The translations under genes were made by a program, and so were the position numbers. From a virus (taxonomy: Duplodnaviria; Caudoviricetes), in IMG/VR virus record IMGVR_UViG_3300032294_001470, positions 1-55,134 of that record: a stretch of DNA of 55,134 bases, one strand, 5' to 3'. Shown in pieces: positions 1 through 53,438 of this stretch. How positions within the stretch are numbered: the first letter of the stretch is position 1; every line of letters starts with the position of its first letter. Below the pieces are notes generated by a model. That model was not told the DNA's origin. It was given only the letters and a program-made list of their open reading frames with translations, and searched no databases.

Positions 1-159
1 TTATAACGTCTCGCGTCCAAATGGTTATGGACCGTGGTGTTTTTCGGACTTGGGTACCATCCCGCATTACGTCCACTTGACTATTTTACCCCACTTCACC
101 AGTAGATTGGACTGGATGCCATATAGGGAGTGGGGGTTTCCCGTTATTTCGGGACTCCG
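1..159 (-). ncRNA. Candidate structured RNA directly 3' of the atypical tRNA (may extend beyond window edge)
   Basis: GC-rich island in AT-rich DNA. Minus-strand stems: GGAGT/ACTCC, CCCG/CGGG, CCAGT/ACTGG, CCCCACT/AGTGGGG, GTCCA/TGGAC. No credible ORF. Confidence 0.45.
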
Positions 160-232
160 TGGTAAGAGATGGAATCGAACCATCGGCACCTTGCGTTTCG
201 AACAAGTGCTCTACCTACTGAGCTATCTTACC
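160..232 (-). tRNA. Atypical tRNA, anticodon loop TC-GAA-AC (tRNA-Phe(GAA)-like with C33)
   Basis: Reverse complement folds into a 73-nt cloverleaf: acceptor GGTAAGA/TCTTACC, D stem GCTC/GAGC, anticodon stem CTTGT/GCAAG, T arm GATGG-TTCGATT-CCATC. Identity uncertain. Confidence 0.8.
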
Positions 233-1134: not shown

Positions 1135-1192
1135 ATCCTGTAATTTGATTACAAAGATAATGTATTTTTTTTAAATCAATAAAAAAAAATTG

Positions 1193-1277
1193 TACCCGGG
1201 GCGGGACTTGAACCCGCACGGACATTACTGTCCAAATGATTTTAAGTCATTCGCGGCTACCTTTACGCCACCCGGGT
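1193..1277 (-). tRNA. tRNA-Leu(TAA)
   Basis: 85-nt cloverleaf with long variable arm (GGACA-GTAA-TGTCC), anticodon loop CT-TAA-AA, T arm GCGGG-TTCAAGT-CCCGC. Confidence 0.93.
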
Positions 1278-11459: not shown

Positions 11460-13397
11460 TTAATTGAATTTATTAATTCTGTTGAACATCTCCGAAATTT
11501 TATTCTTTTGGGTAATAAATGATTCTTTCATATCAACATCAATTTCTTCCCAATCATCATCTTCAGAGTCATCTCCTTCAAAATCCCCACTATGTGTTGC
11601 AAATCCGAAATCATCTTCAGAGTCATATTCCTCCAATTCACTTTCATATGAAAATTCTTGGTAAGGACCTCCTTTACCTGGTCCCTCACTATCAAAATCA
11701 TATGCTCTTTTCATACTACCATAAATTCCTTGAGACCCTGAAACATCTTGTTCGTCCATTTCTTCTTCAATTTCATCGTCAGCCCATGCAGATTCCATAG
11801 TTTCATACATTTTTTCAGGGTCATATCCATACATGTCATCTTCATTAACCGGATATACACCTAATGGTCCGTTAGATTCAAAATCATATGCTGGTTGAAC
11901 ATCATCAACATCCATATCATCAACATTTCCCTCTTGTTCGTCTAAATCTGAGATATAATCCTCGACATCTCTATCTGGGAACAAGTAGTTTGATTTTTTT
12001 CCTCTAAATTTAAAATGAGGATTTGAATTATCCTCATAATCAATTCTATCCACGAATTCAATATCATCTTCATAATCAGGGTTATACTTTGGAAAGTATT
12101 TGTATTTACTACCTTTACTTAATTTGTCAACCTCAATTTCATCAAGATTCATATCTTCAAATCCATCATCTTCATTATCCGGGTCATCAACACCATCTTC
12201 AGTGTAAGATGATTCATAATCTTGGAAATCATTATCATCATCATAATATGGGTCATACATACTTCGGTCTTTATAATCGTCATTACTAACTTGTTCAGTT
12301 TTAATTTTTTTCATGTGATGAGCTTTTTCAAATGTCCCATAGTCGTTTCCACCACCTTCAACATAATCGAAATCACCTTTTGTTAAGTTCAAATCATGCA
12401 CATTATAAATGTCATCCAAATGTCCGGTTTCTTCCTCCATTCTTCCTGAACCACATTGCTCACAAACATTTTCTTTCATGGTGCCACCACATTGTTCACA
12501 AACTTCTTTGAGTTTATTTTTACCAATAATCACATCGTCAATAACAATTTGTTCTGTCCTATCTTTTCTTAAGTTTTTAAAGTCATTTTCTTTACCCTTA
12601 GTTTTACCACCAAGTACATCAATAACGACCATATCTTTTTCTTCGTTTCTATCTTTTCGTAAATTTTTTAATTTATCAGTAGTTTTACCACCAAGTACAT
12701 CATCACTATGTCTATATTTAGTTTTGTATGATGGCATGTCACGAGGCATTCTTAGTTCAGGATAATATTCTTCTTCATCGTCATCACCATAGTATGGGTC
12801 ATACATACTTCTGTCTTTATATTCTTCATCGTCATCATCACCTAAACCATATTTAGTATTACCATAGTCAATATCATCTTCAAAAGAATCTTCATAATCT
12901 CTATCACCCATCAACATGTCTTTTTCTCTTCTAGACATTTTAGAAAGGTTTTTATTACCGAACCTTGGGTGTCCGTCATCCATACCACCAAGTTCCATAA
13001 CTTCACCCTTCGCACCACATTGTTCGCAAGTCTCACCTTCTTTCATTTCACCACCACATTGTTCGCACATATTACCTTCTTCCATTTCCGACTCTTCCAT
13101 ATGTCCATAATTACATTCAGAACAAACACCATCCATAATCATTGCACCACACTCATCACAAACTTCGTTATTCTCAACTTGTTCGTTAATTCCCATGTTT
13201 GTGTATTTCTTAACTTCACCCTTATTATTAACAACCATACCATCTTTATCGCCAGCAAAATCATAAACATATAATGGTTGAGTGTTTGATACCTGTGGTT
13301 GCATTGTTTGGTATCCGTTATATAAACTTTTATGTTGGTTCAAAATATCTTGTTTTTCACTTGCAGATAATTGACCTAATCCAAAATAACCTCTCAT
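11460..13397 (-). CDS. Very acidic low-complexity protein with repeated CxxCG knuckles
   Basis: 645 aa; six CxxC motifs (CDECG, CSEC, 4x CEQCG); internal repeats YKDRSMYDPYY, DVLGGKT, KNLRKDR, AYDFxSxGP. Confidence 0.85.
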   Translation of the reverse strand: MRGYFGLGQLSASEKQDILNQHKSLYNGYQTMQPQVSNTQPLYVYDFAGDKDGMVVNNKGEVKKYTNMGINEQVENNEVCDECGAMIMDGVCSECNYGHMEESEMEEGNMCEQCGGEMKEGETCEQCGAKGEVMELGGMDDGHPRFGNKNLSKMSRREKDMLMGDRDYEDSFEDDIDYGNTKYGLGDDDDEEYKDRSMYDPYYGDDDEEEYYPELRMPRDMPSYKTKYRHSDDVLGGKTTDKLKNLRKDRNEEKDMVVIDVLGGKTKGKENDFKNLRKDRTEQIVIDDVIIGKNKLKEVCEQCGGTMKENVCEQCGSGRMEEETGHLDDIYNVHDLNLTKGDFDYVEGGGNDYGTFEKAHHMKKIKTEQVSNDDYKDRSMYDPYYDDDNDFQDYESSYTEDGVDDPDNEDDGFEDMNLDEIEVDKLSKGSKYKYFPKYNPDYEDDIEFVDRIDYEDNSNPHFKFRGKKSNYLFPDRDVEDYISDLDEQEGNVDDMDVDDVQPAYDFESNGPLGVYPVNEDDMYGYDPEKMYETMESAWADDEIEEEMDEQDVSGSQGIYGSMKRAYDFDSEGPGKGGPYQEFSYESELEEYDSEDDFGFATHSGDFEGDDSEDDDWEEIDVDMKESFITQKNKISEMFNRINKFN

Positions 13398-13441
13398 AAT
13401 TTAATTTTAATAATAAATACTTCTAAATCTACATTTATCGT

Positions 13442-13470
13442 TTGACAAAGTCGAAACTTGAGTTTATTAT
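13442..13470 (+). promoter_or_regulatory. Sigma70-like promoter TTGACA-N17-TATTAT
   Basis: TTGACA 13442-13447 and TATTAT 13465-13470; predicted start ~13477 coincides with the base of a hairpin. Confidence 0.6.
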
Positions 13471-13476
13471 TATATT

Positions 13477-13555
13477 GTCAGTGAGAGTTCTCAACATATT
13501 TGATAGTATCTTGGTAACTTACTTTCGCCGAAAAAGGGCTCTCCTGATTTTTTCT
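13477..13555 (+). ncRNA. Candidate trans-acting antisense sRNA
   Basis: Stem TCAG-T-GAGAGTTC / GGGCTCTC-CTGA followed by T6. Loop 13493-13516 is complementary to the start-codon regions of minus-strand genes starting at 36838 and 42581. Confidence 0.6.
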
Positions 13556-13571
13556 CACAATTTTTTTCAAG

Positions 13572-13826
13572 ATGAATATTAAAGGATACGATATTAATGA
13601 AATTGCCGAAGGTGCTGTTATATTAGATGGATTAGATTCCGCGATAATTGGTGTCATTGAGGAATTTGGTCGAGACAATCGAATCCTATATTCAAAAAAT
13701 AAAATCATAGAAATTCTATCCGAGAGAGATGGTATGGATTGGGAGGACGCCGAAGAATTTTATGGTTACAATATTTTGGGTCTTTACGCCGGAGAACAAA
13801 ATCCAGTTTTTTTAATTACGGAATAA
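13572..13826 (+). CDS. Conserved phage hypothetical protein
   Basis: DGLDSAIIG...Y...AEEF..YNI.G.Y.GE..P.F pattern common in phages. Confidence 0.8.
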   Translation: MNIKGYDINEIAEGAVILDGLDSAIIGVIEEFGRDNRILYSKNKIIEILSERDGMDWEDAEEFYGYNILGLYAGEQNPVFLITE

Positions 13827-13866
13827 CTAAAAAAAATTTATTATATTTGCATCAAAATTGTAAATA

Positions 13867-14367
13867 ATGAATATATTCTTTTTAGATTATGATGTTGAAA
13901 AATGTGCTCAATATCATTGTGACAAGCATGTTGTTAAAATGATACTTGAAACCGCCCAATTATTGTGCGGTGTTCATCATATAACCGACCAAGTAACCGA
14001 CCAAGTAACCGACCAAGTACCCTACAAGTTGTCACATAAAAACCATCCTTGTGCGATATGGTCTCGGGAATCATTAACCAATTATTTGTATCTATGTGAA
14101 CTGGGTTTAGCTCTTTGTAAAGAATATACCCATAGATATGGAAAACGACATAAGTCTCAAGATGTTATTGAGTGGTGTGTCACAAATAAAGTCAATATTT
14201 GTGACAAAGGTTTCACCGAACCTCCAAAGGCAATGCCGGATGAATATAAAGTTAAATCGGTGATTCAATCTTATAGAAATTATTATGTTGGAGCAAAATC
14301 ATCATTTGCAAAATGGAAAAATAGAGAAATTCCACAATGGTTTAAATTAGAAGAAGAATTAGTATGA
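13867..14367 (+). CDS. Pyrimidine-dimer DNA glycosylase / DenV-like protein
   Basis: MNIFFLD, HCDKHVVKMILETAQLL, HKNHPC, EYTHRYGKRH, AMPDEYK, YRNYY. Confidence 0.8.
   Translation: MNIFFLDYDVEKCAQYHCDKHVVKMILETAQLLCGVHHITDQVTDQVTDQVPYKLSHKNHPCAIWSRESLTNYLYLCELGLALCKEYTHRYGKRHKSQDVIEWCVTNKVNICDKGFTEPPKAMPDEYKVKSVIQSYRNYYVGAKSSFAKWKNREIPQWFKLEEELV
13982..14019 (+). repeat. 12-bp tandem repeat x3 (TAACCGACCAAG), in frame
   Basis: Encodes TDQV x3 inside the glycosylase. Confidence 0.9.
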
Positions 14368-22808: not shown

Positions 22809-25217
22809 ATGAAATACATCTTAAATTTAGACAATGTGTCTTTGAAAGACATTAATATTGTTGGAGGAAAAAACGCATCATTAGGTGAAATGTTACAACA
22901 CCTAAAAAAATTAGAAATTAAAGTCCCTAATGGATTTGCAATAACTATTGATGGTTATTATGACTTCATAAAACATAATAACTTAGATAAACCAATCAGA
23001 GAACTTATTGGGAATCTAAAAGAAAATGACATTATTGAGCTTAGAAGAACCGGTTTAACGGTAAGACAATTAATTCGTAATGGAGTTTTTCCTGAACAAT
23101 TAAAAAACGAAATACAAACAAAATATCGTGAGTTGTCCGAAATTTATGGTCAAACAATGACTGATGTTGCGGTGAGGTCATCGGCAACTGCAGAAGATTT
23201 GCCCGATGCTTCTTTTGCGGGTCAACAAGAGACTTTCTTAAATGTTAGAGGTTCGGAATCAATCTTAGAATCAGTTAGAAATTGTTTTGCGTCTTTGTTC
23301 ACCGATAGAGCCATTTCATATAGAAATTCTTTTGGTTATGACCATTTCGATGTTGGGTTGTCGGTATGTATCCAAAAAATGGTCCGGTCAGATTTATCTT
23401 CATCCGGAGTCGCATTTTCATTAGACACAGAAAGTGGGTTTAAAGATGTTGTTATGATTAATGGTTCATATGGTTTAGGAGAAATGATAGTTCAAGGAAC
23501 AATATCACCAGATGAATTTATTGTTTTTAAACCATTATTGGAAAAAGGTTTTAGTTCCATAATTGAAAAAAAATTAGGGAATAAAGACCAAAAAATGATT
23601 TATGGTGAAGACCACGGCAAGTTAACCAAAATCGTTAATATTGATGATGAACATAGAAACAATTTTTGTATTAACGATAAACAAGTATTAGAAATCGCAA
23701 AATGGGTTACATCAATTGAAAAATACTACTCAGAATTAAAAGGACATTGGTGTCCAATGGATGTGGAATGGGCGATTGACGGATTAACTAATGAGTTATA
23801 TATTGTTCAGGCTAGACCTGAAACAATCCACTCAAGGAAAAAAAGAGATATATTAACCGAATATACAATTAATACTGAAAATTTAAAACCTATTGTTAAA
23901 GGTAGTGCTGTTGGAGATAAAATCACTAATGGAGAAGTAACTATTATGTATTCATTAGATGGTAGAGACGGGTCGTTAGATTGTTCTGAATTTGTTGAGG
24001 GAAGTGTCTTAGTAACTGATATGACAGACCCTGATTGGGAACCTATAATGAAAAAAGCGTCTGCGATTATAACAAATCGAGGAGGTAGGACATGTCACGC
24101 AGCGATTGTTGCAAGAGAAATGGGATTACCGGCAATTGTTGGAACAATGAATGCTACGGAAATATTAAAAAATAATCAAAAGGTGACGGTATCTTGTGGA
24201 GAAGGAGATGTTGGTTTTGTATATGATGGTTTCATTGATTATGAGAAAATTGAAACAAATTTGGACGATTTACCTGAAGTTTCAACACCAATTATGTTGA
24301 ATGTTGCATCTCCCGAAATCGCATTTAAGTTTTCAAATCTTCCAAACGCAGGTGTTGGTTTGGCAAGAGAAGAATTCATAATAAATAACTATATAAAAGC
24401 ACATCCAATGGCTTTATTAAAACATAAAGAAATTGGAGATGAGGAATTAACAAAACAAATTAATTCAATTATTAAAGGGTATGATGATGAAGAAACTTTC
24501 TTCATTAAAAAATTAAGTTATGGTATTGCAAGAATTGCCGCAGCGTTTTACCCCAATAAAGTTATTGTTAGACTTTCAGACTTTAAATCAAATGAATATA
24601 AAAATCTTTTAGGTGGGTCGTATTTTGAACCGGATGAAGAAAACCCAATGATTGGTTGGAGAGGAGCATCAAGATACTATTCCGACAAATATAAAGAAGC
24701 TTTTGGTATGGAAATTAAGGCAATAAAAAGAGTTAGGGAAAAAATGGGATTTGATAATGTCGTTGTTATGATACCTTTTTGTAGGACCATAGATGAGTTA
24801 TTGAAAGTTTATAAGGTTATGGAATCTTATGGGTTAAAACGAGGTGAGAAAGGGTTAGAAGTTTATTTAATGGCCGAATTACCATCAAACATTTTTATGG
24901 CGGAAGAATTTTCAGAATATGTGGACGGATTCTCAATTGGGTCAAACGATTTAACACAATTAGTGTTAGGTTTAGATAGGGATTCCGCACTTGTTTCTCC
25001 AATTTACGATGAAAGAAATCTTGCGGTTAAAAGAGCGATATCTCATTTAATAAAAATTGGAAAGAAAACAAATACGAAAGTTGGAATTTGTGGTCAAGGT
25101 CCGTCTGATTTCCCTGATTTCGCAGAATTCTTGGTAGAAGAAGGTATTGATAGTATCTCAATAACACCGGATTCATTATTAAAAACATTAAAAACTTTAA
25201 GTAAATTAAAAAAATAA
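22809..25217 (+). CDS. ppsA: Phosphoenolpyruvate synthase (pyruvate, water dikinase)
   Basis: VGGKNASLGEM, VAVRSSATAEDLPDASFAGQQET, QARPET, GGRTCHAAIVARE (phospho-His), ENPMIGWRG, FSIGSNDLTQ, GICGQ. Confidence 0.97.
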   Translation: MKYILNLDNVSLKDINIVGGKNASLGEMLQHLKKLEIKVPNGFAITIDGYYDFIKHNNLDKPIRELIGNLKENDIIELRRTGLTVRQLIRNGVFPEQLKNEIQTKYRELSEIYGQTMTDVAVRSSATAEDLPDASFAGQQETFLNVRGSESILESVRNCFASLFTDRAISYRNSFGYDHFDVGLSVCIQKMVRSDLSSSGVAFSLDTESGFKDVVMINGSYGLGEMIVQGTISPDEFIVFKPLLEKGFSSIIEKKLGNKDQKMIYGEDHGKLTKIVNIDDEHRNNFCINDKQVLEIAKWVTSIEKYYSELKGHWCPMDVEWAIDGLTNELYIVQARPETIHSRKKRDILTEYTINTENLKPIVKGSAVGDKITNGEVTIMYSLDGRDGSLDCSEFVEGSVLVTDMTDPDWEPIMKKASAIITNRGGRTCHAAIVAREMGLPAIVGTMNATEILKNNQKVTVSCGEGDVGFVYDGFIDYEKIETNLDDLPEVSTPIMLNVASPEIAFKFSNLPNAGVGLAREEFIINNYIKAHPMALLKHKEIGDEELTKQINSIIKGYDDEETFFIKKLSYGIARIAAAFYPNKVIVRLSDFKSNEYKNLLGGSYFEPDEENPMIGWRGASRYYSDKYKEAFGMEIKAIKRVREKMGFDNVVVMIPFCRTIDELLKVYKVMESYGLKRGEKGLEVYLMAELPSNIFMAEEFSEYVDGFSIGSNDLTQLVLGLDRDSALVSPIYDERNLAVKRAISHLIKIGKKTNTKVGICGQGPSDFPDFAEFLVEEGIDSISITPDSLLKTLKTLSKLKK

Positions 25218-34436: not shown

Positions 34437-36341
34437 TTAAAGTTTAATAAAAGGTTTAGTTATTTGTTTATTATCATCGGACAAAACCAATAGATAGTTT
34501 CCTTGGGGTAGTTCAGGATGGTTTATATTCTTTGTGATTTTTGTATTAGTACCATCTGAATTAATATATCCTAAGTCAATCATTAGTTTGCCTTGATAAT
34601 CATAAATAGATGCATTCATGTTTGTGTTAGGTAATAATTCAAATTCTGTTGTAAAATTACCTGTATTTGGATTAGGGTAAATACTAATCGTTGGCTCTGT
34701 GATATTACTCACTACTTGTGTCATTTTATACATCATCACAACTCTTTGTGATGCTAACACAATATTCAAATGGTCTCCTTCTTTATCTGAAGCATCCATT
34801 AATTGTCTGATAACAACATCGGTTGAAATATCATCCGTTGATGTTTTGGCTAAAAATTTTAATTTAAAAGGGGTCGCTAACCCTTGTAGCGACCCATTTT
34901 TTTGATTATTCATTGCTCCGAATCTAACAATACCATTTACATCGTCATTGGTTACATATTGTAACCAAGGACCTTGTAAATTCGATACTATCTCATCGAA
35001 TGAAACTTTATTGACATCATATTTTATCTCAAATTGTAAACCATTACTAAGTTCACCATTTGTTGAGATGTTAAATGGAACATACATTGGTTCACCCACA
35101 GAATAAACATCAGGAATATTCACATCAAATTGTCCTTTGTAAATCGCTGCGAATATTTCAGTTGTTCCGTTAAATACCGGTGAAGAGTGTGTTCTATCAA
35201 CATCACCTAAAACAAAATATTTGATATCTAAACTTAAATTTGTTAATCCAACACTATCATAAATGAAAGTTCCTCTATTAGAGTAATTTACCCAATCAGT
35301 CCATTGGTTACTTCCTAACACAAGAGAATCATATTCATCTTTACTAAAGACATTTATTAATTTTGAAGTGTCGATAGGTTTTAACCCTGAAACTGATGCG
35401 TATATCCCATAAGGGTCACCACCATCTAATTTAGTGTTTAAGTTAATATCACCAATTAAAAATCCTAAACCATGTTTCAAATAAAGGTGTCCATAAGTTT
35501 GATTAACATCCGTATTAACATACTCATTATATGATTTGATTGCGTCTGAAATTGTAACAGCGTTGTCTCTAATATAATTCAAACTATCTTTAGGGAATCT
35601 AACTTCAATCTTATATTTAGTATTCTCATCAACATTATTTAAAGTATATGTTCCATTGATGTTTGGTTTAGTTTGTGACACCAAGTTTCCGGTATTTTTC
35701 TCATAACAATAGATTGTCGGAAGAAGTCCTGTTGTCATTGTTGTCGGGAACCAAACTTTACCTGAAATTGTTAAGTTACCTAACAACTTAACTCTTTGTT
35801 TTTGAATGTTAAGACTTGCGATGTTATCACCTATTGAAGTTCCGTCCACTTTAAACATTCTCGACCAATTCACAATAATTGAATCTGATTCATAATTTGA
35901 TTCAACATTATTGATAATGAATTTGTTATGGATAATATACCCATTTGACGAGAAATTCGCGGCACTTCCTGAAGCGAATATTAGGTAATTACGACCTACT
36001 TTCCAGTTAGTGTCTGAAGTATAATTATATATCCCTGTTGCTGAGGTATATGAACTATACTTGTAGTTATTCCATTCTTGATAATCTAAGGTTGGAGTGT
36101 TGGTTGAATACATTGCGTCAACCGATGTTGAAATGTGCGTAAATAGGGTTTTCTTAAATTGAAAATCGATTTGAAAGGTTCTAATATCGACACCTGACGC
36201 TGGTTTATAATACCATGCGACATCTATCGTATCACCCCTTCTAACCGTCTTTAATTGTTGAAAATGACCTATTTCCGGTGTTTGTGAGTATCCAATTACA
36301 CTAAAAAGAGCAATGAATACCACGGAAATTAGTTTTTTCAT
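34437..36341 (-). CDS. T9SS-sorted protein with cohesin-like and dockerin-like modules
   Basis: Sec signal; cohesin-like GDTIDV..FQIDFQF and VPFNI..GLQFEIKYD; dockerin-like GDINLNTKLDGGD; C-terminal IYPNPN...IYDYQGK...LPQGNYLLVL...KPFIKL (type A CTD). Confidence 0.8.
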   Translation of the reverse strand: MKKLISVVFIALFSVIGYSQTPEIGHFQQLKTVRRGDTIDVAWYYKPASGVDIRTFQIDFQFKKTLFTHISTSVDAMYSTNTPTLDYQEWNNYKYSSYTSATGIYNYTSDTNWKVGRNYLIFASGSAANFSSNGYIIHNKFIINNVESNYESDSIIVNWSRMFKVDGTSIGDNIASLNIQKQRVKLLGNLTISGKVWFPTTMTTGLLPTIYCYEKNTGNLVSQTKPNINGTYTLNNVDENTKYKIEVRFPKDSLNYIRDNAVTISDAIKSYNEYVNTDVNQTYGHLYLKHGLGFLIGDINLNTKLDGGDPYGIYASVSGLKPIDTSKLINVFSKDEYDSLVLGSNQWTDWVNYSNRGTFIYDSVGLTNLSLDIKYFVLGDVDRTHSSPVFNGTTEIFAAIYKGQFDVNIPDVYSVGEPMYVPFNISTNGELSNGLQFEIKYDVNKVSFDEIVSNLQGPWLQYVTNDDVNGIVRFGAMNNQKNGSLQGLATPFKLKFLAKTSTDDISTDVVIRQLMDASDKEGDHLNIVLASQRVVMMYKMTQVVSNITEPTISIYPNPNTGNFTTEFELLPNTNMNASIYDYQGKLMIDLGYINSDGTNTKITKNINHPELPQGNYLLVLSDDNKQITKPFIKL

Positions 36342-36838
36342 CTTTTAAATAAATTAATGATTAATGTCTCTGAGGACTTTTTTATAACATTCGAAACTGA
36401 TGTTTGATTAAAACCACCATTTTCTGATATTATTAGTGTTGACATGGAAATCTCGGAGGATTTACCACTGGTAATGGTTTCTCTAATTTTTTTACCATTT
36501 TTATCATATAGATAACCTTTAACCCTTAAGATTGTTTCATTCTCATCTTTATGAAAAACTGAAACTCCGGAGTTTGTTTGAATTATATCAAAATAAAGTA
36601 ATTCAACTTTAATCACATAATCCGCGTCTTTAATAGAATCGGTTACATCATAATTCATTTCCTGTAAATTCTCCAAAAGAATGTTTTTAACTCCAAAAGT
36701 CAAATTTCGGTTGTTAGATAGTTCTCCAATCTCAATCTTATTTTCAATTGATTGAATAAAAACTTTTTTAGGAGATTCTTGTTGAGTGAAGGATGCGAGC
36801 ATCACGATGGCTAGCATCGAAGTGAATAATTTTAACAT
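36338..36838 (-). CDS. Exported protein, CsgG/LptE-like alpha-beta fold
   Basis: Signal peptide; VFIQSIEN, FGVKNILLENL, ADYVIKVELLYFD; shares 'FNQ(T/S)...KKS.E' tail with 32807-33520. Confidence 0.6.
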   Translation of the reverse strand: MLKLFTSMLAIVMLASFTQQESPKKVFIQSIENKIEIGELSNNRNLTFGVKNILLENLQEMNYDVTDSIKDADYVIKVELLYFDIIQTNSGVSVFHKDENETILRVKGYLYDKNGKKIRETITSGKSSEISMSTLIISENGGFNQTSVSNVIKKSSETLIINLFKR

Positions 36839-36859
36839 ATTAATAGTATCTTGGTATTG

Positions 36860-36896
36860 ATAAATATTTCAAAACTTATTGTTGATAGATATTTAT
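36860..36896. promoter_or_regulatory. Back-to-back ATATTTAT motifs for the divergent envelope operon and endolysin
   Basis: ATAAATAT at 36860-36867 (ATATTTAT on minus) and ATATTTAT at 36889-36896 (plus). Confidence 0.6.
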
Positions 36897-36911: not shown

Positions 36912-37760
36912 ATGTTATTAAAAATTGGTTCTAAAGGAGATGATGTAAAAAAACTCCAAACAAAATTAGGTCTTGTATCTGACGGATATTATGGTGCATT
37001 AACTGCAACTGCAGTGAAAAAATGGCAGGCAGCTAACGGATTAACCGCCGATGGTATTGTTGGTGCCGGAACTTGGAGTAAAATGTTTGGAACACCGACT
37101 CAAGAAACTACAATAGTTAAAGAAGATAAAATCATTCCTCAACCTGTTACTTCAGTTGGAGGATTAAAAATTGATAGATTAAGAGGTCATATTCCTGATT
37201 CAGTTATCTCACAAATACCTGATACAGCGGCAAAATTTAACATTACAAATAACTTGAGATTAGCTCACTTTTTGGCACAATGTGGTCATGAATCAGGTGG
37301 GTTCAAAGCGGTTAGTGAGAATGTTAACTATTCCGCGGCAGGTCTTAAGGGTATTTTTGGAAAATACTTTCCCGGTAATTTAGCGGAATCATACGCTCGT
37401 AACCCACAAAAAATCGCAAGTAGAGTTTATGGTGGAAGAATGGGTAATGGCCCTGAAGCAACTGGAGACGGATATAAATTCCGTGGCCGCGGCTTTATAC
37501 AATTAACAGGAAAAAACAATTACACACAATTTTCCAAATTTATTAGTGAGGATTGTGTTGCTAATCCTGATTTGGTCGCAACCAAATATCCTTTGGCGTC
37601 AGCCGCATTCTTCTTCGATTCAAACAAACTTTGGGCGATTTGTGACAAAGGGGCAGATAACGCAACTATAACTGCGGTAACAAAACGAGTTAATGGCGGG
37701 ACAATAGGATTGGCCGATAGAATTAAACATTTCAACGAATATTATAAATTACTATCGTAA
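36912..37760 (+). CDS. Endolysin: peptidoglycan-binding domain + glycoside hydrolase family 19
   Basis: LKIGSKGDDVKKLQ..DG.YG..T..AV..WQ..GL.ADGIVG; AHFLAQCGHESGG, FRGRGFIQLTGKNNY, TKRVNGG. Start moved to ATG 36912. Confidence 0.92.
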   Translation: MLLKIGSKGDDVKKLQTKLGLVSDGYYGALTATAVKKWQAANGLTADGIVGAGTWSKMFGTPTQETTIVKEDKIIPQPVTSVGGLKIDRLRGHIPDSVISQIPDTAAKFNITNNLRLAHFLAQCGHESGGFKAVSENVNYSAAGLKGIFGKYFPGNLAESYARNPQKIASRVYGGRMGNGPEATGDGYKFRGRGFIQLTGKNNYTQFSKFISEDCVANPDLVATKYPLASAAFFFDSNKLWAICDKGADNATITAVTKRVNGGTIGLADRIKHFNEYYKLLS

Positions 37761-42326: not shown

Positions 42327-42581
42327 CTACTCCTCTTCTTCTTGAGGTTTTTTGTTCAATGTGATAAACTTATCAACTGACGCAATTCCAAAACAAGCGA
42401 TGGTTAAGATTTTAAATGAATCGAAGATGAATTCATTAACCAATAAAGGTCTTCCCATTGCGCCTGTCACAATGTCTACAACAGCAAATGAGCACATCAT
42501 AACAAATGACATGAATCCGATGACCGCTTTTTCGTTGATTGAGTTGTGGTCGTTAAACAAATCTTTAAAAAATTTTTTCAT
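42327..42581 (-). CDS. Two-TM small membrane protein, holin-like
   Basis: 84 aa, two hydrophobic helices, charged C-terminus; ATATTTAT upstream. Holin role is inference. Confidence 0.55.
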   Translation of the reverse strand: MKKFFKDLFNDHNSINEKAVIGFMSFVMMCSFAVVDIVTGAMGRPLLVNEFIFDSFKILTIACFGIASVDKFITLNKKPQEEEE

Positions 42582-42628
42582 AGTATCTTGGTTTTACTAT
42601 AAATATCTTTTAAAAAGTAAATAGTAAA

Positions 42629-52690: not shown

Positions 52691-52744
52691 CTTAATTATA
52701 AATATATTGGGATAAAAAAAATTAAATGGAAATAAAATCGTAAA

Positions 52745-53410: not shown

Positions 53411-53438
53411 ATCTATAAATATCCCATAAACCAGTTGA

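What the first reader, a model, noticed from the sequence alone, without database searches (positions are those of the whole stretch)
13442..13555. Self-contained hairpin sRNA whose loop is antisense to the start codons of two distant genes (candidate phage trans-acting riboregulator)
Seen: TTGACA-N17-TATTAT (13442-13470) is followed by a stem (TCAG-T-GAGAGTTC / GGGCTCTC-CTGA, 13478-13547) and a T6 tract, i.e. promoter, hairpin and terminator with no ORF. The loop AACATATT-TG-ATAGTATCTTGGTA (13493-13516) recurs on the plus strand at 36834-36856 as AACATATT-A-ATAGTATCTTGGTA (8+14 identical nt), spanning the CAT of the minus-strand gene starting at 36838. It recurs again as ATAGTATCTTGGT at 42580-42592, overlapping the CAT of the holin-like gene starting at 42581. 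Both targets are minus-strand genes, so a plus-strand RNA would pair with their 5' UTR and AUG, and both follow ATATTTAT motifs. Inference: an sRNA made early from a host-type promoter silences translation of later envelope/lysis genes, giving a timing switch. Alternatives: a DNA operator or a duplicated UTR fragment.
Basis: partly seen in the sequence, partly recalled or inferred. Interest (0 to 1): 0.88.

Follow-up and report, generated by a model that had tools for sequence, protein, structure and literature searches.

The report
Phage leader hairpin antisense to lysis-gene leaders
A conserved RNA hairpin at the start of a probably early operon in freshwater jumbo phages carries a nearly unchanging loop complementary to the start regions of a holin-like gene and a gene beside the endolysin, so it probably controls them by base pairing.

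Summary
The 13-mer occurs three times exactly, always on the minus strand, against 0.004 expected.

The hairpin is a real structured RNA family. Sixty distinct homologues share an invariant TTGAC-N17-TAT promoter geometry. Thirteen of the 14 outer-stem pairs show compensatory changes, and the loop core is almost invariant. Rfam has no match.

In relatives the same two gene families keep a complementary 5' leader. These are a 166-aa secreted protein beside the endolysin and an 84-aa two-helix holin-like protein. In a complete 326-kb relative they are the top 2 of 394 start regions. Relatives without the hairpin lack the complementary holin-like leader.

- The hairpin always lies in the 5' leader of an 84-aa gene, 6-29 nt before its ATG.
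- The T-run is weak in 21 of 60 sequences.
- The 8-nt extension is lineage-specific.
- "Host-type promoter" is doubtful for a probable Bacteroidota host.

Expression and repression could not be tested. Best reading: a leader-embedded, trans-acting antisense RNA (confidence 0.58).

The parts
13442..13470 (+). Promoter-like site: TTGACA, 17-nt spacer, TATTAT
   Evidence: Scores 11 of 12 in the consensus scan. TTGAC, the TAT of the second hexamer and the 17-nt spacing are invariant in 23 of 23 aligned homologues. The second hexamer ends 6 nt before the stem in the window and its nearest relative. The same site lies directly before the ATG in relatives that lack the hairpin.
13477..13491 (+). 5' arm of the outer stem (bulged U at 13482)
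   Evidence: Fold. Covariation over 60 distinct sequences: 13 of 14 pairs show changes on both sides and 91% of cells are paired.
13492..13534 (+). 43-nt loop. The nearly invariant core is 13502-13523, and the exact antisense 13-mer is 13503-13515
   Evidence: Core invariant in 23 of 23 homologues and nearly invariant in 60 distinct sequences. Minimum-energy folds place the CUUGGU stretch in an apical loop of 11-16 nt above a short inner stem.
13535..13548 (+). 3' arm of the outer stem
13548..13553 (+). T6 run after the stem (possible partial terminator or attenuator)
   Evidence: A T-run of 5 or more within 10 nt of the stem occurs in 39 of 60 distinct homologues. The terminator scan found none here because the loop is too long for its rule.
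13572..13826 (+). 84-aa gene (PHROG phrog_13182, function unknown) whose 5' leader holds the hairpin
   Evidence: The hairpin lies upstream of homologues of this gene in 30 of 65 viral-contig loci and 64 of 80 metagenome loci.
36839..36867 (-). Target 1 leader: ATATTTAT (36867-36860), then TACCAAGATACTAT, then TAAT before the ATG at 36838
   Evidence: The exact 13-mer sits in the leader of 11 of 11 orthologues found by protein search.
36338..36838 (-). Target 1 gene: 166-aa protein with an N-terminal signal-like segment. It is divergent from the endolysin (36912-37760, plus strand) and overlaps by 4 nt the gene for a 634-aa protein with a T9SS sorting domain
   Evidence: There are only weak leads to an envelope lipoprotein: TraT at E 0.008, and LptE and DUF4410 clusters.
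42582..42606 (-). Target 2 leader: ATATTTAT (42606-42599), AGTAAA, then ACCAAGATACT running into the ATG at 42581
   Evidence: Orthologous leaders keep complementarity to the loop in 13 of 13 loci found by protein search, in three different registers.
42327..42581 (-). Target 2 gene: 84-aa protein with two hydrophobic segments and an acidic C-terminus (holin-like by architecture only)
   Evidence: No Pfam or PHROG family matched. The nearest protein-atlas clusters are viral hypothetical proteins.

Best explanation
The plus-strand transcript from the conserved TTGACA-N17-TATnnT site begins with a stem-loop of about 72 nt. This stem-loop is the 5' leader of what is probably an early operon, whose first gene is the 84-aa gene at 13572. 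Where a U-run follows the stem, as in this window, part of the transcripts probably ends there and yields a free RNA of about 75-80 nt.

The stem holds out a nearly invariant loop whose apical CUUGGU stretch starts pairing. The loop pairs with the very short 5' leaders and AUGs of two unlinked mRNAs. Both are made from TATTTAT-type, probably late, promoters. One encodes a holin-like membrane protein. The other is the first gene of the operon beside the endolysin. Pairing covers the whole leader and the start codon, so the expected effect is to block translation, to trigger decay, or both. That would delay or set a threshold for these lysis-region products.

Shown here: the RNA structure, its conservation, the complementarity and its conservation in orthologues, and the co-occurrence of hairpin and complementary leader.

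Inferred: that the RNA is transcribed, whether it terminates after the stem, which promoters are early and which late, the sign of the regulation, and the link to lysis timing.
For: 1. Structure. On 60 distinct homologues 92.1% of cells are paired, against 78.8% in shuffles. Thirteen of 14 outer-stem pairs have compensatory changes. The covariation score is 0.420 against 0.168 in shuffles (0 of 500 reach it) and at most 0.114 when partners are slid.

2. Strand. Cells compatible only with plus-strand pairing (G-U) outnumber those compatible only with the minus strand (A-C) by 24 to 13 in the outer stem and 30 to 3 in the inner stem. The plus strand folds better in 16 of 21 sequences.

3. Loop conservation. 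The loop core is invariant while the neighbouring protein falls to 63-76% identity.

4. Targets by exact match. The 13-mer occurs three times, all on one strand. The two copies outside the hairpin are at start codons.

5. Targets by orthology. Target 1 orthologues carry the 13-mer in the leader in 11 of 11 cases. Holin-like orthologues keep loop complementarity in 13 of 13 cases, in three registers: ACCAAGATACT-ATG, AGTAAATTACCAAG-CT-ATG, and TAAGTAAATTACCAA(A)ATACT-ATG.

6. Whole-genome ranking. In the complete 326-kb relative G010 these two genes rank 1 and 2 of 394 start regions, at -38.4 and -28.1 kcal/mol. The next is -23.2, the mean -11.9 and the sd 3.9. In the window they rank 1 and 2 of 97.

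7. Lineage-specific co-variation at the target 1 AUG. In the window AACAUAUU pairs with AAUAUGUU. In G031 UUCAUUU pairs with AAAUGAA. In the G010 clade UAUUUUCAU pairs with AUGAAAAUA. Cognate duplexes average -33.8 kcal/mol against -31.6 for non-cognate ones, permutation p 0.002.

8. Co-occurrence. Holin-like leaders are complementary in 11 of 11 genomes that hold both hairpin and gene. They are not complementary in the three hairpin-less lineages (6 contigs). Of 48 other contigs with a holin-like gene, 47 have no hairpin, and 11 of those are at least 90% complete. Apart from the G003-G005 fragments, the leaders of those 47 lack the motif. The complete relative G046 has no hairpin.
Against: - No transcript evidence. 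No listed sequencing run holding this phage is RNA.
- The hairpin is never free-standing. The ATG of the 84-aa gene follows within 6-29 nt in 60 of 60 sequences, and 21 of 60 lack a T-run of 5 or more. It could therefore act only in cis.
- The terminator scan finds no terminator here.
- Duplex energy alone is not unique. In 60-nt tiles over the whole window, three unrelated tiles score -28.2 to -28.6, as good as target 1, and target 2 is not among the ten best tiles.
- G001 and G002 lack the AUG-side extension, and their target 1 leaders pair no better with their own RNA than with foreign ones.
- The cognate test and the co-occurrence test are confounded by relatedness, with roughly three clades.
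- The G010-clade holin-like leader has an A-C mismatch in the middle of the duplex.
- The inner stem and the loop are invariant, so they offer no covariation test.
- Sequence identity between the loop complement and the leaders would equally fit a shared protein-binding site.
Confidence: 0.58

Rival explanations
1. The hairpin is a cis-acting leader or attenuator of the 84-aa-gene operon, and regulation runs the other way. Abundant late mRNA leaders, or some other factor, bind the loop and change termination, stability or translation of the early operon. The two late genes are effectors, not targets.
For: The hairpin lies in the 5' leader of the 84-aa gene in 60 of 60 distinct homologues, with the ATG 14 nt or less from the stem in 48 of 60. 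In relatives without the hairpin, the same promoter-like site sits directly before the ATG, so the hairpin is an insertion into a leader. Pairing is symmetrical, and nothing here fixes its direction.
Against: One invariant loop facing two different, faster-evolving leaders is the pattern expected of a regulator constrained by several targets. The complementarity covers the AUGs of the two late genes, which is where a repressor would act. Nothing in the loop overlaps the start region of the 84-aa gene.
Confidence: 0.17
2. The repeated sequence is the binding site of a phage protein, either a DNA operator or an RNA operator. It is present at two late promoters or leaders and once in the early leader. 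Complementarity between RNAs is a by-product.
For: All three copies in the window are identical and in the same orientation. At both late genes the motif starts 3-8 nt after TATTTAT, where a repressor could block initiation. The pattern of loop-leader mismatches does not clearly favour wobble-compatible changes: the G010-clade holin-like leader has one G-U and one A-C.
Against: A DNA operator does not explain a 14-bp flanking stem with 13 of 14 covarying pairs or the excess of G-U over A-C pairs. For an RNA operator, the hairpin copy would need a minus-strand transcript. The region upstream on that strand holds no promoter-like motif and is the start of a plus-strand gene. The holin-like leaders keep complementarity in three shifted registers rather than one fixed site. 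The lineage-specific extensions over the AUG fit pairing better than a fixed protein site.
Confidence: 0.1
3. It is a non-functional remnant: a duplicated and inverted fragment of a late-gene 5' region carried along in an intergenic spacer.
For: The loop complement resembles the target 1 leader, including its ATG and the following bases in some lineages. That is how an antisense RNA gene could first arise.
Against: About 22 nt of the loop are invariant across 60 distinct sequences while the flanks and neighbouring proteins diverge. The stem covaries. Promoter geometry is fixed. A remnant would decay.
Confidence: 0.03

Closest known systems
Leader- or attenuator-derived trans-acting sRNAs: rnTrpL of Sinorhizobium meliloti (PMC6614838, abstract read in the listing) and Rli51 of Listeria (PMC11394854, start of abstract read)
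   Same: The RNA sits in the 5' leader of an operon behind that operon's promoter. A stem followed by U residues could release it as a short RNA. It is proposed to pair with unlinked mRNAs.
   Different: This element is phage-encoded and has no leader peptide or known ligand. Its predicted targets are the phage's own lysis-region genes. Termination is unproven and looks weak in 21 of 60 homologues.
Phage cis-antisense RNAs: PAK_P4as15 opposite the endolysin gene of Pseudomonas phage PAK_P4, sar of P22 and aQ of lambda (passages of review PMC12197685 read; PMC5563952 seen in a listing only)
   Same: A phage RNA proposed to repress the phage's own genes by pairing. For PAK_P4as15 the proposal is to delay lysis.
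   Different: Those RNAs are transcribed from the strand opposite their target at the same locus. Here the RNA gene lies 23 kb and 29 kb from its two targets (14 kb and 18 kb in G010). It pairs through a 13-35-nt loop and has two targets.
c4 antisense RNA of phages P1 and P7 (passage of PMC12197685 read; the details below are recalled)
   Same: A small structured phage RNA whose loops pair with short complementary sites on a phage mRNA and mask a ribosome-binding region. No Hfq-type chaperone is assumed.
   Different: As recalled, c4 is processed from the same transcript that carries its target sites and controls the antirepressor for immunity. Here the targets are on separate transcription units, and the phage looks virulent and is jumbo-sized.
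Type I toxin-antitoxin systems (PMC2887945, start of abstract read)
   Same: A small hydrophobic membrane protein whose synthesis would be blocked by a base-pairing RNA.
   Different: Type I pairs are adjacent or overlapping. This one is separated by 29 kb, has a second non-toxin target, and sits in a lytic programme rather than an addiction module.

Membership tests
Any Rfam 15 family | Match to a curated covariance model | tested here: not met
   Gathering-threshold scan of the whole window found 3 tRNAs only. The E-value scan of 13380-13620 found one chance-level match, SNORD81 at E 1.5 and 17 bits against a 50-bit gathering score.
Trans-encoded base-pairing sRNA | Conserved complementarity to the translation-initiation region of unlinked mRNAs | tested here: met
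Trans-encoded base-pairing sRNA | Conserved seed presented in an unpaired region of a conserved structure | tested here: met
   The outer stem covaries. The core is invariant. The apical loop is unpaired in the minimum-energy folds of 21 of 21 sequences. The inner stem has no covariation test.
Trans-encoded base-pairing sRNA | Discrete transcript with its own promoter and terminator | tested here: inconclusive
   The promoter-like site is invariant. A T-run of 5 or more occurs in 39 of 60 sequences, and the ATG of the next gene lies 6-29 nt away. The terminator scan is negative. No RNA data exist.
Trans-encoded base-pairing sRNA | Compensatory co-variation between regulator and target | tested here: inconclusive
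   Three lineage-specific extensions over the target 1 AUG. The cognate set beats the non-cognate set with p 0.002, but this rests on about three clades, and G001 and G002 do not fit.
Trans-encoded base-pairing sRNA | Measurable effect on target expression | not testable with these tools
   Needs reporter or infection experiments.
Cis-encoded antisense RNA (sar, aQ, PAK_P4as15 type) | Transcribed from the strand opposite the target at the same locus | tested here: not met
   The hairpin is at 13.5 kb and the targets at 36.8 kb and 42.6 kb. In G010 they are at 179.6 kb, 193.7 kb and 197.4 kb.
Type I toxin-antitoxin | Toxin gene and antisense RNA gene adjacent or overlapping | tested here: not met
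   They are separated by 29 kb. Toxicity of the 84-aa protein was not tested.
Intrinsic terminator | G+C-rich stem, 3-8-nt loop, then a U-run | tested here: not met
   The loop is 43 nt, and the scan found 0 sites in 13000-14000. The U-run is variable.
Holin (target 2) | Match to a holin family, or demonstrated lysis function | tested here: not met
   No Pfam or PHROG hit. Protein-atlas neighbours are hypothetical proteins. Only the architecture fits: two hydrophobic segments and a charged C-terminus, 5 kb from the endolysin.

The most novel reading that the evidence does not exclude
A previously undescribed RNA family of uncultivated freshwater jumbo phages, probably of Bacteroidota, acts as a chaperone-independent, trans-acting antisense regulator built into the first leader of an early operon. 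Its invariant loop masks the entire short leader and AUG of the holin-like mRNA and of the operon beside the endolysin. Accumulated early RNA would then set the threshold that late transcription must exceed before lysis: an RNA-based lysis clock. Its hosts initiate translation without Shine-Dalgarno pairing.
Probability: 0.4. Interest if true: 0.8.

Novelty: new variant of a known kind. Interest (0 to 1): 0.68.

Why it matters
Phage lysis timing is classically explained by proteins such as holins and antiholins, and by cis RNA structures or cis-antisense RNAs. The review passages read here (PMC12197685) list phage sRNAs that act on host genes or in cis. Four literature searches turned up no trans-encoded phage RNA aimed at the phage's own holin-like gene, and none in phages of Bacteroidota.

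If correct, this gives three things:
- a new RNA family with 60 distinct members;
- two concrete, conserved targets that make the hypothesis directly testable with compensatory mutants;
- an example of antisense control in hosts where initiation depends on an unstructured leader rather than a Shine-Dalgarno site (PMC6847099, start of abstract only).

It also gives annotation pipelines a marker for the start of an early operon and for the lysis region in these uncultivated 300-kb phages.

Tried and rejected
Minus-strand small ORF. The ATG at 13497 with the same upstream motif would give 20 aa. Rejected, because the ATG is lost in L006/L091 and indels are not in threes.

Close relatives among deposited phages. 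None were found; only a 42-nt stretch of the DenV-like gene matched Acinetobacter phages.

Expression. No RNA holder is listed among 24 runs. The 20 that hold the stretch are DNA metagenomes. Read laying was therefore not used, since contigs cannot show an RNA.

'Late' status of TATTTAT genes. Of 10 large G010 genes with the motif, one is tail-fibre-like, two have peptidoglycan-binding or endolysin-like domains, two match only PHROG families of unknown function and five match nothing. Of 10 window genes, one is tail-like. This is suggestive only.

Target identity. Two protein-atlas look-ups gave only hypothetical viral clusters and weak lipoprotein leads.

Duplex energy over whole-window tiles does not single out the targets. 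The case rests on position and conservation, not on energy.

The near-copy at 24668-24680 (1 mismatch, plus strand) lies inside the 802-aa gene and was treated as chance.

Loop-to-target co-variation for the rare loop-core variants (L198, L199, L218, L221, L225, L226) could not be tested. Their contigs are 1.8-14 kb and do not reach the target genes.

Full report
**What is in the window**

The window is a complete IMG/VR record of 55,134 bp with 31% G+C, estimated at about 19% of a genome. The finding lies in the 174-bp divergent spacer between a 645-aa gene (11460-13397, minus strand) and an 84-aa gene (13572-13826, plus strand; PHROG phrog_13182, function unknown).

- TTGACA-N17-TATTAT at 13442-13470, scoring 11 of 12;
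- a 14-pair stem with one bulge around a 43-nt loop, at -20.0 kcal/mol, z -2.46;
- a T6 run at 13548-13553.

The 13-mer ACCAAGATACTAT occurs three times exactly, always on the minus strand: at 13503-13515, 36843-36855 and 42580-42592. Composition predicts 0.0044 copies, and 7 of 3000 random 13-mers have two or more further copies.

The second copy lies 4 nt before the ATG of a 166-aa gene with a signal-like N-terminus. That gene is divergent from the endolysin. The third copy runs into the ATG of an 84-aa protein with two hydrophobic segments.

**Host and promoter context**

A T9SS C-terminal sorting domain in the 634-aa gene and TAnnTTTG-like motifs before at least 12 of 97 predicted genes (counted by eye) point to a Bacteroidota host. 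That motif's meaning is recalled knowledge of the Bacteroidota -7 element.

A second motif, TATTTAT, precedes many minus-strand genes. In the complete relative G010 it occurs 223 times, and 89 of 394 genes have it within 60 nt upstream. The distance from motif to ATG peaks at 4-6 nt and at 14-20 nt. That implies leaderless or short-leader mRNAs.

Both targets have this motif 3-8 nt before the complementary block. The block would therefore be essentially the whole 5' leader; this is inference. That these are late genes is only suggested by a tail-fibre-like gene and a tail-like gene among the 20 scanned.

TTGACA-N16-18-TAnnnT is a small class. G010 has 25 hits, 11 of them intergenic although intergenic DNA is only 6% of the genome. 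Calling it 'host-type' is therefore uncertain.

**The hairpin is a conserved structured RNA**

Searching with the neighbouring proteins found the element upstream of homologues of the 84-aa gene in 30 of 65 viral-contig loci and in 64 of 80 metagenome loci. Some metagenome loci are the same contigs as viral ones. In total there are 60 distinct sequences.

In the 23-sequence alignment TTGAC, the TAT of the second hexamer and the 17-nt spacing are invariant.

A covariance model was built on a structure I supplied and used to realign the hits. On 60 distinct rows:
- 92.1% of cells are paired, against 78.8% in shuffles and 38-46% when partners are slid;
- 13 of 14 outer-stem pairs have changes on both sides;
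- the covariation score is 0.420, against 0.168 in shuffles (0 of 500 reach it) and at most 0.114 when slid.

The alignment is fitted to the model and so leans towards the structure. The slid controls and the variety of stem sequences visible by eye (GUCAGuGAGAG, ACAAGUGAG and AGGGAGAG types) are robust all the same.

The inner 6-pair stem is built from invariant bases and cannot be tested.

G-U cells outnumber A-C cells by 24 to 13 and 30 to 3. The plus strand is the more stable in 16 of 21 sequences. Both favour a plus-strand RNA.

Rfam 15 has no such family.

**It is a leader, not a free-standing gene**

In all 60 distinct sequences the ATG of the 84-aa-gene homologue follows the stem by 6-29 nt, and by 14 nt or less in 48 of 60. 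A T-run of 5 or more follows in 39 of 60.

Relatives without the hairpin (L093, L094, L109, L115) have the same TTGAC(A/C)-type site directly before the ATG. The hairpin is therefore a module inserted into the leader of this operon.

In the window's own clade the T6-T7 run and the 24-29-nt spacer make partial termination plausible. That would release an RNA of about 75-80 nt. This is inference.

**The loop is antisense to the same two genes everywhere**

Pattern and protein searches in related contigs gave the following.

Target 1:
- 11 of 11 orthologues carry TATTTAT, then 3-4 nt, then TACCAAGATACTAT before the ATG.

Holin-like gene:
- 13 of 13 orthologues have a leader complementary to the loop, in three registers.
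- The window clade has AAACCAAGATACT-ATG.
- G006 has AGTAAATTACCAAG-CT-ATG.
- The G010 clade has TAAGTAAATTACCAA(A)ATACT-ATG, which is 24 nt with one G-U and one A-C.
- All three share pairing to the CUUGGU stretch, which minimum-energy folds place in the apical loop.

Ranking:
- In the complete 326,291-bp genome G010 the two orthologues rank first and second of 394 start regions, at -38.4 and -28.1 kcal/mol. The next is -23.2, the mean -11.9 and the sd 3.9.
- The only exact matches of 16 nt or more to the loop complement in that genome are the hairpin itself and the target 1 leader.
- In the window they rank 1 and 2 of 97.

Caveat: in 60-nt tiles over the whole window, three unrelated tiles reach -28.2 to -28.6. 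Energy alone is not decisive.

**Co-variation and co-occurrence**

Other lineages have their own extensions across the target 1 AUG: UUCAUUU with AAAUGAA in G031, and UAUUUUCAU with AUGAAAAUA in the G010 clade.

Over 9 genomes the cognate target 1 duplexes average -33.8 kcal/mol against -31.6 for non-cognate ones (permutation p 0.002). For the holin-like gene the figures are -27.3 against -26.9 (p 0.02). This rests on about three clades and is suggestive, not proof.

Co-occurrence:
- In the three hairpin-less lineages of the same phage group, the holin-like leaders lack the complement (6 contigs).
- The complete genome G046 has no hairpin, although only 150 of 373 candidates were scored.
- Of 48 further contigs with a holin-like gene, only G006 has the hairpin, and 11 of the others are at least 90% complete.
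- The leaders of those others lack the motif, except on the G003-G005 fragments, which do not cover the hairpin locus.
- This result too is confounded by relatedness.

**Mechanism and rivals**

The best reading (0.58) is a leader-embedded antisense RNA. Its loop pairs in trans with the whole short leader and the AUG of two mRNAs, and so blocks initiation.

This is plausible in Bacteroidota, where initiation is tuned by mRNA structure rather than by Shine-Dalgarno pairing (PMC6847099, start of abstract only). The direction of regulation, its sign and its timing are all inferred.

Rivals:
- a cis leader on which the late leaders act (0.17);
- a shared protein operator (0.10), disfavoured by the covarying stem, the G-U excess, the shifted registers and the lack of any minus-strand promoter;
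- a decaying remnant (0.03).

**Comparison with what is known**

The element works like attenuator- or leader-derived trans sRNAs such as rnTrpL and Rli51, and like chaperone-independent antisense RNAs such as c4 of P1/P7.

It fails the defining feature of cis-antisense RNAs and of type I toxin-antitoxin pairs, which is adjacency or overlap. It is in no Rfam family.

The review passages read list PAK_P4as15, a cis-antisense RNA on an endolysin gene, as the nearest idea for RNA-delayed lysis.

I rate this a new variant of a known kind, with interest 0.68.

Noticed in passing
window, upstream of many minus-strand genes, e.g. 52691-52720, 53411-53438, 42599-42606, 36860-36867: A TATTTAT(A) motif ends 4-6 nt or 14-20 nt before many start codons. 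There are 49 copies in the window. In G010, 89 of 394 genes have it within 60 nt upstream. It looks like a phage-specific, possibly late, promoter that gives leaderless or very short-leader mRNAs.
   Followed up: partly
window, e.g. before 13867, 14849, 17203, 38229, 47399, 53886: TAnnTTTG-like motifs sit just upstream of at least 12 of 97 predicted genes (by eye). This fits the Bacteroidota -7 promoter element (recalled), so these may be early or middle genes read by the host polymerase.
   Followed up: no
window 34437-36341 (-): A phage-encoded 634-aa protein has a T9SS C-terminal sorting domain (Por_Secre_tail, E 7e-10). It overlaps target 1 by 4 nt, so it is probably co-translated and would come under the same leader control.
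   Followed up: no
window 159-232, 370-442, 1192-1277 (-): Three tRNA genes: Phe-GAA, Glu-TTC and Leu-TAA.
   Followed up: no
window 13867-14367 (+): A DenV-like pyrimidine-dimer DNA glycosylase (Pfam Pyr_excise; PHROG phrog_624 at E 1e-60) is the second gene of the operon behind the hairpin. A 42-nt stretch is 93% identical to Acinetobacter T4-like phages.
   Followed up: no
G010 (loci L155-L171): 262212, 251409, 141636, 90841, 154130 (-): Besides the hairpin promoter, a handful of intergenic TTGACA-N16-18-TAnnnT sites lie 7-97 nt before gene starts in the complete relative. They may form a small separate promoter class, possibly immediate-early.
   Followed up: no
metagenome loci L198, L199, L218, L221, L225, L226 (hairpin loop core): There are rare substitutions in the otherwise invariant loop core. 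Some are A-to-G and C-to-U, which would keep pairing through G-U. Others are U-to-C, which would need a matching target change. The contigs are too short to see the targets.
   Followed up: partly
window 24668-24680 (+): A one-mismatch copy of the 13-mer lies inside the 802-aa gene on the opposite strand. The overlapping 60-nt tile scores -28.6 with the loop. This is probably chance.
   Followed up: no
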